Both the position numbers and the translations under genes were made by a program. Below, piece by piece: positions 51,819 through 53,976 of a stretch of 60,812 bases of DNA (the stretch's first letter is position 1; each line of letters starts with the position of its first letter). The notes below the pieces were generated by a model. The model was given only the letters and a program-made list of their open reading frames with translations, was not told the DNA's origin and made no database searches. This DNA is from Alphaproteobacteria bacterium (lineage in GTDB: Bacteria; Pseudomonadota; Alphaproteobacteria; RF32; CAG-239), in assembly GCA_045633945.1 (NCBI GenBank), contig JAZQZH010000010.1, positions 1 to 60,812 on the forward strand, given 5' to 3'.

Positions 51819-52421
51819 ATGGAGAGGGAAATGTTTAGAGGTTTTTTATTTATATTTTTAGGTGTGATTTTTTCTTTTAATTTATATGCCGGCGAAATTA
51901 AAAAATTGCCAGTGCCAGATAAATCTTTAGAGATTATGAAGCTAATTGGTGATCGTAAATCATCTCGAGAATATAGTAATGAAGATATTAGCCTTCAGAC
52001 TTTAAGTGAGCTTTTATGGAGTGCTTTTGGTATTAATGAAAGAGGTACAAGAACTATTCCAACAGCAAAAAATGAACAAAATTTGAATGTTTATGTTGTT
52101 TATGAAAACTCTACTTGGAAGTATGATGCAAAAGAAAATATGCTTTTGAAAGTGAGTGATGAGGATATGATGCAATATATTGCTAAGCAAGATTTTGTAA
52201 AAAATGCGCCAGTTAATTTAATTTATACAGGAAGTGATAAGGATTATTCTCATTTTCATGCAGGTGCTGCAGCGGAAAATGTTCATTTATATGCAATTAG
52301 CAAGGGGTTAAATACTATTGTTAGAGGATATATTGATAAAGATGAATTGAAGAATAAGCTCCATTTGGATATGGAAGAGTTTGTAATTATCAATCAAGTT
52401 ATAGGATATCCTCGTGGCTAA
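51819..52421 (+). CDS. Nitroreductase-family protein with signal peptide
   Basis: RKSSREY, LSELLW.AFGIN, RTIPTA.N.Q, ENVHLYA.S.GL. Confidence 0.88.
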   Translation: MEREMFRGFLFIFLGVIFSFNLYAGEIKKLPVPDKSLEIMKLIGDRKSSREYSNEDISLQTLSELLWSAFGINERGTRTIPTAKNEQNLNVYVVYENSTWKYDAKENMLLKVSDEDMMQYIAKQDFVKNAPVNLIYTGSDKDYSHFHAGAAAENVHLYAISKGLNTIVRGYIDKDELKNKLHLDMEEFVIINQVIGYPRG

Positions 52422-52488
52422 TTAAACTTTTATCAAATTAAAAAAATACTTGATAAAATATTTTTTTAGTTATAGCTTTCTTGGTGTT

Positions 52489-52579
<91 letters not shown>

Positions 52580-52586
52580 TTTTTTT

Positions 52587-52608
52587 AGAGGCTTTTAGCC
52601 TCTTTTTT
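52587..52608 (+). terminator. tRNA terminator
   Basis: agaggc-tttta-gcctct plus T tract. Confidence 0.75.
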
Positions 52609-52614
52609 ATATTT

Positions 52615-52893
52615 AAAAAAAGAAACCTCCCTGATATATTTGCTAACAAATATAGGGAGGAAGAAATGGTTTTCTTTTTTGCTCATTTGGTTGAGGAAAT
52701 GAGCGGTGGATTTTGATTACTCTCATCTATAAGCAAACAGACAGAGTGGCTTTGCTGCAATGTTTATGAGTCTGTTCAGAAAACTTATATTATATGGCAG
52801 CAGAAAAGTGGTCGAACAGAGCACTTAAAGTTATAGCAAATATCAAAATCGAATTTTTAATAATTAATTTATGACATAGTAGTAGATTGACTG
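52615..52893 (-). ncRNA. Candidate structured ncRNA, copy A
   Basis: TTGACA(52928-23)-N17-TACAAA promoter; cctccct/agggagg terminator with U tract; long-range stems; homologous core with copy B. Confidence 0.65.
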
Positions 52894-52971
52894 ATAGTGT
52901 TTGTAATGACAAAAAAATATTTTGTCAATAGTTTTTTATGAAAAAATTTAGCAAATAATTTGTTTTTATTT

Positions 52972-53214
52972 AAAAAAAGAACTCCCGCGGTATTTTGGTG
53001 AAATACAAGCGGGAGAAAGAATAAGGATTCTTTTGATACCTGATAGAGGAGTTTTTGGAGTGTTTACACTATGAACATTACATTAACCACAACATCTATG
53101 AGTCTATTTCCGAAAACATTACAATGCAGAAAAATGTAGTCAAATAGAGCGCTTAAATTTGTAGCAGAATTTTCCAAAAAATCACAATCAGGTAGGCATA
53201 GTAATAGTAGGTTG
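52972..53214 (-). ncRNA. Candidate structured ncRNA, copy B
   Basis: TTGACA(53248-43)-N16-TATAAA promoter; ctcccgc/gcgggag terminator with U tract; compensatory stem changes relative to copy A. Confidence 0.65.
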
Positions 53215-53325
53215 GTTATTTTTATAGAGAAAAAAATTTTTTTGTCAAGAGCCTTTTGTAAAAAAATAGCAAAAAACTTTTTTAAGTAATCTTTTGCTAT
53301 TTTATTTTTTTATATTTTTTTGAAT

Positions 53326-53814
53326 TTATTTACTGTCTGTATCGTTAGATTCAGAGCTAGTTTTGTTTTGTTGATATTTCTTTTTTATTTCAGATATTTT
53401 TTCTTTTAAATTTTCATTTGCTTTTTGTTCTACATGTTTTTGTTCTTCTTTGTTTTCAGTAGATGTTGCTGTCTTTTGTGTTTCTTTTGATTTTGTTGTT
53501 TTTACTTTAGATTTTGGAAGAGCTGAGTATGCATAAACAATTTCGCTTTCATCGCCTTCTTTTAGGCTTTCATCGTATTTTAATTCGCAAACATATAAAC
53601 ATTCTTGTTTAGAGATTTTTTTGATGTGTTCATTGTCTAAATCTTCAATTAATACAATATCAGTTGAATTTCTTGTTATTTTTATATATTTTTCATGTTT
53701 GTTTACAAAAAAGGTTGGAGTTTCCGGCGCTTCTTTGCCTTCATATAATAAAACTAAAATTTCACCTTTTTCGTTTTCTATTATATCGTATGTATTTAGA
53801 GATTTGTCTGACAT
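53326..53814 (-). CDS. Hypothetical protein with charged low-complexity C-terminus
   Basis: 162 aa ORF with AAGGA SD and a hairpin downstream (53263-53304). Confidence 0.7.
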   Translation of the reverse strand: MSDKSLNTYDIIENEKGEILVLLYEGKEAPETPTFFVNKHEKYIKITRNSTDIVLIEDLDNEHIKKISKQECLYVCELKYDESLKEGDESEIVYAYSALPKSKVKTTKSKETQKTATSTENKEEQKHVEQKANENLKEKISEIKKKYQQNKTSSESNDTDSK

Positions 53815-53976
53815 GCTTTATCCTTTCTTTAGTTTTGTGTATCTTATATTGAAACTTCTTAAGATAAAGTTACAAAAAAATAAAAAATGAGTCATTTTTT
53901 GTTTGCAATATAAAAAATATATGTTATAAACGCTCATAATTTTAACAATTTAGAGATTAGAAAAGAGGTGATTTAA

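What the first reader, a model, noticed from the sequence alone, without database searches (positions are those of the whole stretch)
52615..53250. Tandem pair of homologous, covarying rod-shaped ncRNAs next to tRNA-Ser
This 700 nt ORF-free gap holds two minus-strand units, each with a TTGACA promoter and an intrinsic terminator. They share a core, UGCUA(U/C)AA.UUUAAG(U/C)GCUCU.UU.GAC.AC...GUUUUC.GAA..AGACUCAUA.A..UUG, with compensatory changes (UCUGUUC/GAACAGA in A, UCUAUUU/AAAUAGA in B). Each has its own long-range closing stems: GAUUUUGAU/AUCAAAAUC in A, UACCUGAU/AUCAGGUA and UUUUUGGA/UCCAAAAA in B. Both have a 3' side hairpin and anti-SD-like UCCUC motifs near the 3' end. They could be duplicated 6S-like RNAs, sibling base-pairing sRNAs or a new ncRNA class. 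A TGACAAAA-N5-TTTTGTCA palindrome overlaps promoter A and may be an operator.
Basis: partly seen in the sequence, partly recalled or inferred. Interest (0 to 1): 0.75.

Follow-up and report, generated by a model that had tools for sequence, protein, structure and literature searches.

The report
Tandem pair of new small RNAs
Two neighbouring genes in an uncultured gut alphaproteobacterium each make a folded small RNA of a family seen in only one sister species; they are probably ordinary regulatory RNAs whose targets are still unknown.

Summary
The 746-nt gap between a 162-aa protein gene and tRNA-Ser(GGA) carries two homologous minus-strand units: B about 53214-52975, A about 52893-52615. Each has a perfect TTGACA -35 box, a TATAAA or TACAAA -10 box and a strong hairpin followed by a U-tail.

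Structure is conserved. One syntenic single-copy orthologue exists in a sister species (G019). Across the three copies the irregular core hairpin keeps its pairs through compensatory changes: 6 of 19 pairs changed on both sides, matched by 1 of 500 shuffles.

There is a hint of expression. Two gut RNA libraries from one study hold contigs lying only inside A or only inside B, and none on the flanking genes.

No Rfam family matches. The genome has its own 6S RNA, SRP RNA and Hfq elsewhere. No conserved ORF exists.

The family was found in 2 of 36 genus genomes and nowhere else searched.

Best reading: a new, lineage-restricted pair of sibling trans-acting sRNAs, possibly Hfq-dependent. No target was found. 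The 6S-like reading is not supported. The operator idea is untested; the palindrome occurs in A only.

The parts
53260..53304 (-). Intrinsic terminator of the upstream 162-aa gene, separating it from unit B
   Evidence: Inverted repeat I17 plus a T run, read. The same arrangement occurs in the orthologous locus.
53243..53248 (-). Unit B -35 box, TTGACA
   Evidence: Read. Conserved in unit A and in G019. Not called by the rule-based scan.
53221..53226 (-). Unit B -10 box, TATAAA, 16-nt spacer (inferred)
   Evidence: Read. The same -35/-10 type precedes protein genes in the genus.
52972..53216 (-). sRNA B, about 240 nt. The 5' end is inferred from the -10 box and the 3' end from the U-tail.
   Evidence: Fold -54.0 kcal/mol, z -4.04. 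An RNA-library contig covers 52996-53149. 68% identical to the G019 orthologue.
53197..53210 (-). Conserved unpaired 5' motif CUACUAUUACUAUG; candidate seed
   Evidence: Identical in B and G019 and 3 nt shorter in A. Predicted unpaired in most positions in all three copies.
53086..53165 (-). Core irregular hairpin of B
   Evidence: Covariance model R1 scores 102.4 bits. Covariation.
52972..53032 (-). B 3' module: small hairpin AAGAAU/AUUCUU, then terminator hairpin and U-tail
   Evidence: -16.2 kcal/mol, then UUCUUUUUUU.
52923..52928 (-). Unit A -35 box, TTGACA
52907..52927 (-). Palindrome TGACAAAA-N5-TTTTGTCA overlapping the -35 box and spacer of A
   Evidence: Read. Unique among 586 TTGACA sites of the genome. 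Not present in B or G019.
52900..52905 (-). Unit A -10 box, TACAAA, 17-nt spacer (inferred)
   Evidence: The same TTGACA-N17-TACAAA precedes a protein gene in G017 (L005).
52615..52895 (-). sRNA A, about 280 nt (ends inferred)
   Evidence: Fold -62.4 kcal/mol, z -4.84. An RNA-library contig covers 52669-52841.
52751..52840 (-). Core irregular hairpin of A
   Evidence: R1 scores 87.5 bits. Covariation.
52681..52704 (-). A-specific side hairpin with CCUC in an 8-nt loop
   Evidence: -9.0 kcal/mol, z -6.45. Loop predicted unpaired.
52615..52676 (-). A 3' module: small hairpin AAGAAA/UUUCUU, then terminator hairpin and U-tail
   Evidence: -15.9 kcal/mol, then UUUCUUUUUUU.
52489..52579 (+). Neighbour: tRNA-Ser(GGA), convergent with unit A, with its own terminator at 52587-52603

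Best explanation
These are two independently transcribed paralogous small RNA genes. B is about 240 nt and A about 280 nt, both on the minus strand. They belong to a new, lineage-restricted family in uncultured gut Alphaproteobacteria.

Each RNA has four parts:
- a 20-45 nt unpaired 5' tail carrying a conserved motif (CUACUAUUACUAUG);
- a rod closed by long-range stems that differ between copies;
- a conserved irregular apical hairpin;
- a small 3' hairpin followed by an intrinsic terminator with a long U-tail.

Most likely they act in trans as sibling regulatory RNAs. They would pair with mRNAs through the free 5' motif and/or pyrimidine-rich loops (the UUUCU apical loop; CCUC loops in A and B). 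Their terminator plus U-tail would be bound by the genome's Hfq.

Shown here: gene anatomy, homology, conserved structure, absence of coding potential, narrow distribution, and presence of the RNA bodies in RNA libraries. Inferred: transcript ends, action in trans, the role of Hfq, and the seed regions. No target is known.
For: Anatomy: a perfect -35 box, a plausible -10 box and strong terminators are conserved in all three copies.

Structure: RNAalifold on the full-length alignment finds both-sided changes at 9 of 42 pairs. In the core, 6 of 19 pairs changed on both sides and 94.7% of cells are paired. One of 500 shuffles reached this, and structures slid by 1-3 columns gave 0-1 such pairs. 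In my manual register of 32 pairs, 20 are invariant, 4 changed on one side, 7 changed on both sides, and 1 has a non-pair.

Strand: there are 4 G-U cells. B folds better on the minus strand, z -4.04 against -2.32.

Expression hint: RNA run X2 holds a 173-nt contig wholly inside A (52669-52841, depth 7.3). RNA run X3 holds a 160-nt contig inside B (52996-53149, depth 31). Both show zero depth on the flanking genes (52100-52404, 53320-53900). Run X1, probably DNA, covers flanks and RNAs alike at depth 3-5.

The 5' motif is identical in B and G019 and predicted unpaired in all three copies.

Hfq is encoded at C27, 84.3 bits.

Most gene starts carry Shine-Dalgarno motifs, 938 of 1321. That count is inflated, because my start choice favoured such motifs.

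No conserved ORF: the shared frame is broken in A, and there is no SD and no conserved start codon.
Against: Only three sequences from two species support the structure, and two of them are paralogues.

The rule-based scan called neither the promoters nor the terminators.

The expression evidence is assembled contigs from one study. They show no strand and no ends, and DNA carry-over is not excluded.

Duplex energies of the 5' seed against 1321 start regions were no better than those of shuffled seeds. Best real values were -22.0 (A) and -19.8 (B). The minima of 8 shuffled seeds ran from -18.0 to -24.3.

Of the 24 other genomic sites (25 counting the motif's own locus) within 2 mismatches of the 14-mer's complement, none lies near a gene start.

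At 240-280 nt and largely double-stranded, with invariant internal loops, the RNAs are long and rigid for base-pairing sRNAs. That fits a protein-binding RNA as well.

The CCUC motifs are not conserved in the orthologue.
Confidence: 0.55

Rival explanations
1. A structured protein-binding or protein-sequestering RNA, not a base-pairing regulator. The conserved irregular hairpin with invariant internal loops would be a protein recognition site held on a variable rod. A second 6S-like RNA is a special case of this reading.
For: Sequence is most conserved in paired or irregular parts: the internal loop GAC(U/C) opposite UUUC(G/U)G, and the staggered G-C pairs. The flanking helices covary. The rod architecture is kept while the closing stems differ completely in sequence. 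The RNAs are 240-280 nt long. No mRNA target stood out.
Against: No match to 6S or to any protein-binding RNA family in Rfam at E up to 10. A canonical 6S RNA is present elsewhere. No large central bubble is conserved. GGA-type motifs are not conserved: the CGGAA of B and G019 is CUGAA in A. No partner protein gene is linked; the adjacent 162-aa gene occurs in 34 of 36 genus genomes, whereas the RNA occurs in 2 of 36.
Confidence: 0.2
2. A young, possibly function-less relic. The sequence would have been laid down at a recombination hot spot next to tRNA-Ser, would happen to be transcribed and folded, and was then duplicated.
For: Very narrow distribution: 2 of 36 genus genomes, and nothing convincing in 151 family-level genomes, 151 order-level genomes or the public collections. 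In other genus members the same spot holds arrays of truncated tRNA-Ser copies or an extra membrane-protein ORF, which marks a variable site.
Against: Compensatory changes between copies that are only 51-68% identical argue for selection on structure. Promoter, 5' motif and terminator are all kept in both species. No similarity to phage, plasmid or viral collections. No partial tRNA duplicate flanks the units in the window. No other copies exist in the genome, so it is not a MITE-type repeat.
Confidence: 0.12
3. A cis-acting element: long structured terminator or insulator modules between the convergent 162-aa gene and tRNA-Ser, or a leader of some gene.
For: The region lies between convergent transcription units. 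Each unit ends in a strong terminator.
Against: The 162-aa gene has its own terminator upstream of B's promoter. Each unit carries its own perfect -35 box. No ORF follows either unit on the minus strand; the next minus-strand gene start is about 4.9 kb away. The RNA contigs cover the unit bodies and not the upstream gene.
Confidence: 0.05
4. Small-protein genes or dual-function RNAs.
For: B and G019 share an open frame through the core, 37 and 66 codons.
Against: In A the same residues fall into two different frames with a stop between them. The starts are TTG or ATG at different places and have no SD. The substitutions between B and G019 in that frame are mostly non-synonymous, and they include the compensatory stem changes.
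Confidence: 0.03

Closest known systems
AbcR1/AbcR2 of Rhizobiales (Agrobacterium, Sinorhizobium, Brucella): tandemly encoded homologous Hfq-associated sRNAs
   Same: Alphaproteobacterial. Two homologous sRNA genes lie head-to-tail, each with its own promoter and intrinsic terminator. Pyrimidine-rich, anti-SD-like motifs are present. The tandem encoding and similarity of AbcR1/2 come from the abstract of PMC3712013 as shown in the listing. The remaining AbcR details are recalled.
   Different: No sequence or structure match to any Rfam family, alpha-r families included, at E up to 10. These RNAs are about twice as long, as recalled for AbcR size. They are rod-like with a conserved irregular hairpin. 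The CCUC motifs are not conserved in the orthologue. Targets and Hfq dependence are untested.
Enterobacterial sibling sRNAs with 5'-end seeds, such as OmrA/OmrB (recalled, not checked in a call)
   Same: Adjacent paralogous sRNA genes. The 5' end and the 3' terminator module are conserved and the middle diverges. The 5' end is free, as a seed would be.
   Different: Here the middle contains the best conserved structured element. The lineage is unrelated and there is no sequence similarity. No target was found.
6S RNA (Rfam RF00013)
   Same: Rod-like overall shape with the 5' and 3' parts paired. Some bacteria carry two 6S paralogues (recalled).
   Different: No model match. A canonical 6S RNA lies elsewhere in the genome. 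No conserved central bubble. Each unit has its own terminator, plus an unpaired 5' tail outside the rod.

Membership tests
6S RNA (RF00013) | Match to the family covariance model at or above the gathering score (46.4 bits) | tested here: not met
   No 6S match in the window at gathering, nor in 52400-53450 at E up to 10. The same model finds C44:10274-10431 at 47.7 bits.
6S RNA (RF00013) | Long helix interrupted by a large central bubble that mimics an open promoter | tested here: not met
   The folds of A, B and G019 show small internal loops and side hairpins, with no shared large bubble. These are predictions only.
6S RNA (RF00013) | Binds sigma-70 holoenzyme and templates product RNAs | not testable with these tools
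   Needs biochemistry.
AbcR-type / alpha-r sRNA families of Rfam | Sequence and structure match to the family model | tested here: not met
   None of the 15 matches at E up to 10 is an alpha-r family. Apart from the tRNA, none reaches its cut-off.
AbcR-type / alpha-r sRNA families of Rfam | Tandem homologous genes, each with its own promoter and terminator | tested here: met
AbcR-type / alpha-r sRNA families of Rfam | Conserved anti-SD motif exposed in a loop | tested here: inconclusive
   A has CCUC in an 8-nt hairpin loop and B has it in an internal loop. G019 has no counterpart.
Hfq-dependent trans-acting sRNAs (class) | Independent gene ending in a stable hairpin with a U-tail of 6 or more | tested here: met
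   Hairpins of -15.9, -16.2 and -13.7 kcal/mol, followed by 7-8 consecutive U.
Hfq-dependent trans-acting sRNAs (class) | Conserved single-stranded seed | tested here: met
   The 5' 14-mer is identical in B and G019 and predicted unpaired in all three copies. This is a prediction, not probing.
Hfq-dependent trans-acting sRNAs (class) | Complementarity to mRNA targets beyond chance | tested here: not met
   The seed scan against 1321 start regions was no better than shuffled seeds. No near-exact site lies near a gene start. The method is crude and used one genome only.
Hfq-dependent trans-acting sRNAs (class) | Binding to and dependence on Hfq | not testable with these tools
   An hfq gene is present; ProQ was not found.
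MITE or other dispersed repeat | Many copies per genome with conserved terminal inverted repeats | tested here: not met
   nhmmer with the full-length profile finds only the two units in the 1.43-Mb genome. The closing stems differ between copies.
Small-protein gene | Conserved ORF with a start codon and ribosome-binding site | tested here: not met

The most novel reading that the evidence does not exclude
The conserved irregular hairpin, with its invariant internal loops between covarying helices, is the recognition site for a protein. On that reading these RNAs found a new class of structured, protein-binding regulatory RNA in host-associated Alphaproteobacteria with small genomes. The tandem copies would give two differently regulated versions; only A has the promoter palindrome.
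Probability: 0.2. Interest if true: 0.55.

Novelty: new member of a known kind. Interest (0 to 1): 0.35.

Why it matters
Uncultured gut and rumen Alphaproteobacteria with genomes of about 1.5 Mb have no described riboregulators. My one literature search on this (201 papers held at least 3 of the 4 terms, 8 were listed) showed none on their non-coding RNAs.

This locus gives a concrete and apparently expressed sRNA family there, with a paralogue pair in which to study divergence after duplication.

Its reach is small: two species, no target, no phenotype. It is a solid annotation and a modest lead, not a surprise for the field.

Tried and rejected
- Rfam at gathering and at E up to 10: only the tRNA. 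The weak rows, such as PyrG_leader at 25 bits against a 65-bit cut-off, sit on terminators.
- 6S-like reading: rejected.
- CM hits outside the genus: G104 (32.5 bits) and G078 (31 bits) lie antisense inside a 196-aa ORF next to a DUF3768 gene. That ORF has no homologue in G000 or G019, so I treat the hits as false. The weaker hits, at or below 23.3 bits, have many broken pairs.
- Degenerate core patterns: genome contigs returned only the G019 record. Metagenome contigs returned 0 twice and viral contigs returned 0. blastn against phages and plasmids gave no match.
- Full-length nhmmer profile: no further copy in the genome. It found nothing below E 1.8 downstream of the 162-aa orthologue in the 28 other genus loci.
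- Short BLAST matches in 11 relatives and in C51 and C52 of the own genome are only the promoter shape, upstream of unrelated genes.
- Target scans were uninformative.
- No partial tRNA-Ser duplicate in the window.
- Small-ORF reading: rejected.
- Earlier notes of this scan hold nothing on this locus or sequence.
- Parts of the units not covered by RNA contigs (their first 50-65 nt and last 20-55 nt) say nothing about transcript ends.

Full report
**What is there.**
The window is contig C10 of a 1.43-Mb genome in 54 contigs, 98% complete and 32% G+C. Its closest relative's record is titled as an alphaproteobacterial MAG. Earlier notes of this scan on the same genome also call it an uncultured gut alphaproteobacterium.

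A 746-nt gap lies between the stop of a 162-aa minus-strand gene (53326) and tRNA-Ser(GGA) on the plus strand (52489-52579). It contains only short ORFs. Read on the minus strand, the gap holds, in order:
- the terminator of the 162-aa gene;
- unit B;
- a 45-nt spacer;
- unit A;
- the convergent terminator of the tRNA.

**Gene anatomy.**
Both units start with a perfect TTGACA: B at 53248-53243, A at 52928-52923. B follows it with TATAAA after 16 nt, and A with TACAAA after 17 nt.

Both end in a stable hairpin followed by a run of U. The hairpins are -16.2 kcal/mol (B) and -15.9 kcal/mol (A), followed by UUCUUUUUUU and UUUCUUUUUUU.

The simple consensus scan called none of these. All 7 promoter-like and all 3 terminator-like sites it reported in 52300-53600 are on the plus strand. 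Its rules demand a T at the end of the -10 box and a loop of 3-8 nt. My reading therefore rests on three things: the direct sequence, its conservation in three copies, and the recurrence of the same TTGACA-N16/17-TA(T/C)AAA type in front of protein genes in this genus.

**Homology and distribution.**
A and B are 57% identical, 143 of 251 aligned positions.

BLAST over 41 related genomes found the RNA body in one genome only. That is G019, of the same genus, at E 2e-18. The short matches in 11 other genomes, and at two other places in the own genome, cover only the promoter and sit upstream of unrelated genes.

In G019 a single copy lies in the same place, between the orthologue of the 162-aa gene and tRNA-Ser(GGA), with the nitroreductase gene behind it. 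It is 68% identical to B and 51% identical to A. B is therefore the positional and sequence orthologue, and A is the diverged extra copy.

A covariance model of the core hairpin (R1) gave these results:
- It finds the two units and the G019 copy in 2 of 36 genus genomes.
- In a draw of 151 family-level genomes that did not include G019, its best hits besides the two own units were 32.5 and 31 bits, in G104 and G078.
- In 151 order-level genomes the only further matches were the G019 copy and those same two hits.
- Those two hits lie antisense inside a 196-aa ORF that has no homologue in G000 or G019, so I treat them as false.

Other searches agree:
- A full-length nhmmer profile finds no further copy in the genome.
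- The same profile finds nothing downstream of the 162-aa orthologue in the 28 other genus loci.
- Degenerate core patterns matched only the G019 record among 185,579 species genomes.
- The patterns matched nothing in the metagenome or viral collections.
- blastn found nothing in phages or plasmids.

**Structure.**
All three RNAs fold better than shuffled versions. The z-scores are -4.84, -4.04 and -3.42, with 0, 0 and 1 of 200 shuffles as good. They share one plan:
- an unpaired 5' tail;
- long-range closing stems, of different sequence in each copy, that shut a rod;
- a conserved irregular hairpin at the tip;
- a small 3' hairpin;
- the terminator.

The covariation counts are as follows.
- RNAalifold on the full-length alignment predicts 42 pairs. 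Nine of them are kept through changes on both sides.
- On the model-fitted core alignment, 19 pairs were counted. Nine never vary, 2 vary on one side, 6 changed on both sides, and 2 have unpaired cells.
- In that core count, 94.7% of cells pair. One of 500 shuffles reaches this, and structures slid by 1-3 columns give 0-1 both-sided pairs.
- My manual register, which also covers the basal helix and the 3' hairpin, gives 32 pairs: 20 invariant, 4 one-sided, 7 both-sided, and 1 with a non-pair in A.

Two caveats apply. There are only three sequences, two of them paralogues, and the structure was derived from these same sequences.

Four G-U cells, and the weaker fold of B's plus strand (z -2.32), agree with the minus strand. 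A's two strands fold about equally well (z -4.84 and -4.38).

The internal loops between the covarying helices are nearly invariant.

**Not coding, and not a known family.**
The frame that B and G019 share through the core is split over two frames in A. It has no SD and no common start codon.

Rfam gives only the tRNA at gathering. In the 1,051-nt region, nothing relevant appears among the 15 matches at E up to 10.

The genome has its own 6S RNA (C44, 47.7 bits), SRP RNA (C3, 58.8 bits) and hfq (C27, 84.3 bits). ProQ was not found.

**Expression hint.**
One search of public runs returned three holders. Their contigs were laid on 52100-53900.
- Run X1 is labelled RNA-Seq but is probably DNA. 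It covers the flanking genes and the units alike at depth 3-5.
- Run X2 is a metatranscriptome. It holds a 173-nt contig lying wholly inside A (52669-52841, depth 7.3).
- Run X3 is a metatranscriptome from the same study as X2. It holds a 160-nt contig inside B (52996-53149, depth 31), with one extra C in the variable apical loop.
- Neither X2 nor X3 covers the flanking protein genes.

This is what abundant small RNAs would give. However, it comes from one study and from assembled contigs, which show neither strand nor ends, and DNA carry-over is not excluded.

**How it probably works.**
The best conserved unpaired stretch is the 5' motif CUACUAUUACUAUG. It is identical in B and G019, 3 nt shorter in A, and predicted unpaired in all three copies.

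The apical loops share UUUCU. A carries CCUC in an 8-nt hairpin loop and B carries it in an internal loop. Most gene starts have SD motifs (the count is biased by my start choice).

Together with the terminator, the U-tail and the hfq gene, this fits sibling trans-acting sRNAs. It is the same working principle as AbcR1/AbcR2, which are tandemly encoded and homologous (abstract of PMC3712013, seen in the listing). These RNAs are not members of that family.

I could not find targets. Duplex energies of the 5' tails against 1321 start regions were no better than those of shuffled seeds. The near-exact complements of the 14-mer are not near gene starts.

The length, the rigidity and the invariant internal loops keep a protein-binding RNA as the main rival.

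**The palindrome.**
TGACAAAA-N5-TTTTGTCA is really there in A's promoter, and it is unique among the genome's 586 TTGACA sites. B has only the A-run and T-run, and G019 has 6 of 8 in the second arm. An A-tract followed by a T-tract is the common spacer shape of promoters in the genus. An operator is possible for A alone but has no comparative support.

**Verdict.**
The locus is a real, probably expressed tandem pair of structured small RNAs of a new and very narrowly distributed family. It is best filed as a new member of the known kind 'sibling regulatory sRNAs', with mechanism and targets open.

No supplementary files were consulted, and none bears on these claims.

Noticed in passing
Loci L043 (G041), L026 (G022) and L027 (G004), downstream of the 162-aa orthologue and next to tRNA-Ser(GGA): In place of the sRNA genes, these relatives carry one to four tandem 5'-truncated copies of tRNA-Ser(GGA), running from the anticodon arm to CCA. 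Each follows a small terminator-like hairpin. In two of them there is also an extra membrane-protein-like ORF. This looks like scars of repeated integration and excision at the tRNA gene. ARAGORN calls only the intact tRNA.
   Followed up: partly
G000:C25:23000-23700 minus strand (L066); similar leader in G004 (L006): A promoter of the same TTGACA-A/T-tract-TATAAA type drives a leader of about 170 nt, followed by a 26-codon ORF with a hydrophobic, cysteine-containing peptide. The start of the leader is conserved in another species. There is no Rfam match.
   Followed up: partly
window 53326-53814, minus strand: The 162-aa protein upstream of the sRNAs has no Pfam family. It has a lysine/glutamate-rich tail and is found in 34 of 36 genus genomes.
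   Followed up: partly
G000:C5:5122-6663, minus strand: Two adjacent genes of about 210 aa are preceded by promoter regions that are identical at 61 of the 62 nt shown, suggesting a recent tandem gene duplication.
   Followed up: no
L056 1261-2158 (G078) and L055 (G104): A 196-aa ORF without a Pfam family, next to a DUF3768 gene, is nearly identical in two genera of the family. It may belong to a mobile element. It gave the only spurious CM hits.
   Followed up: partly
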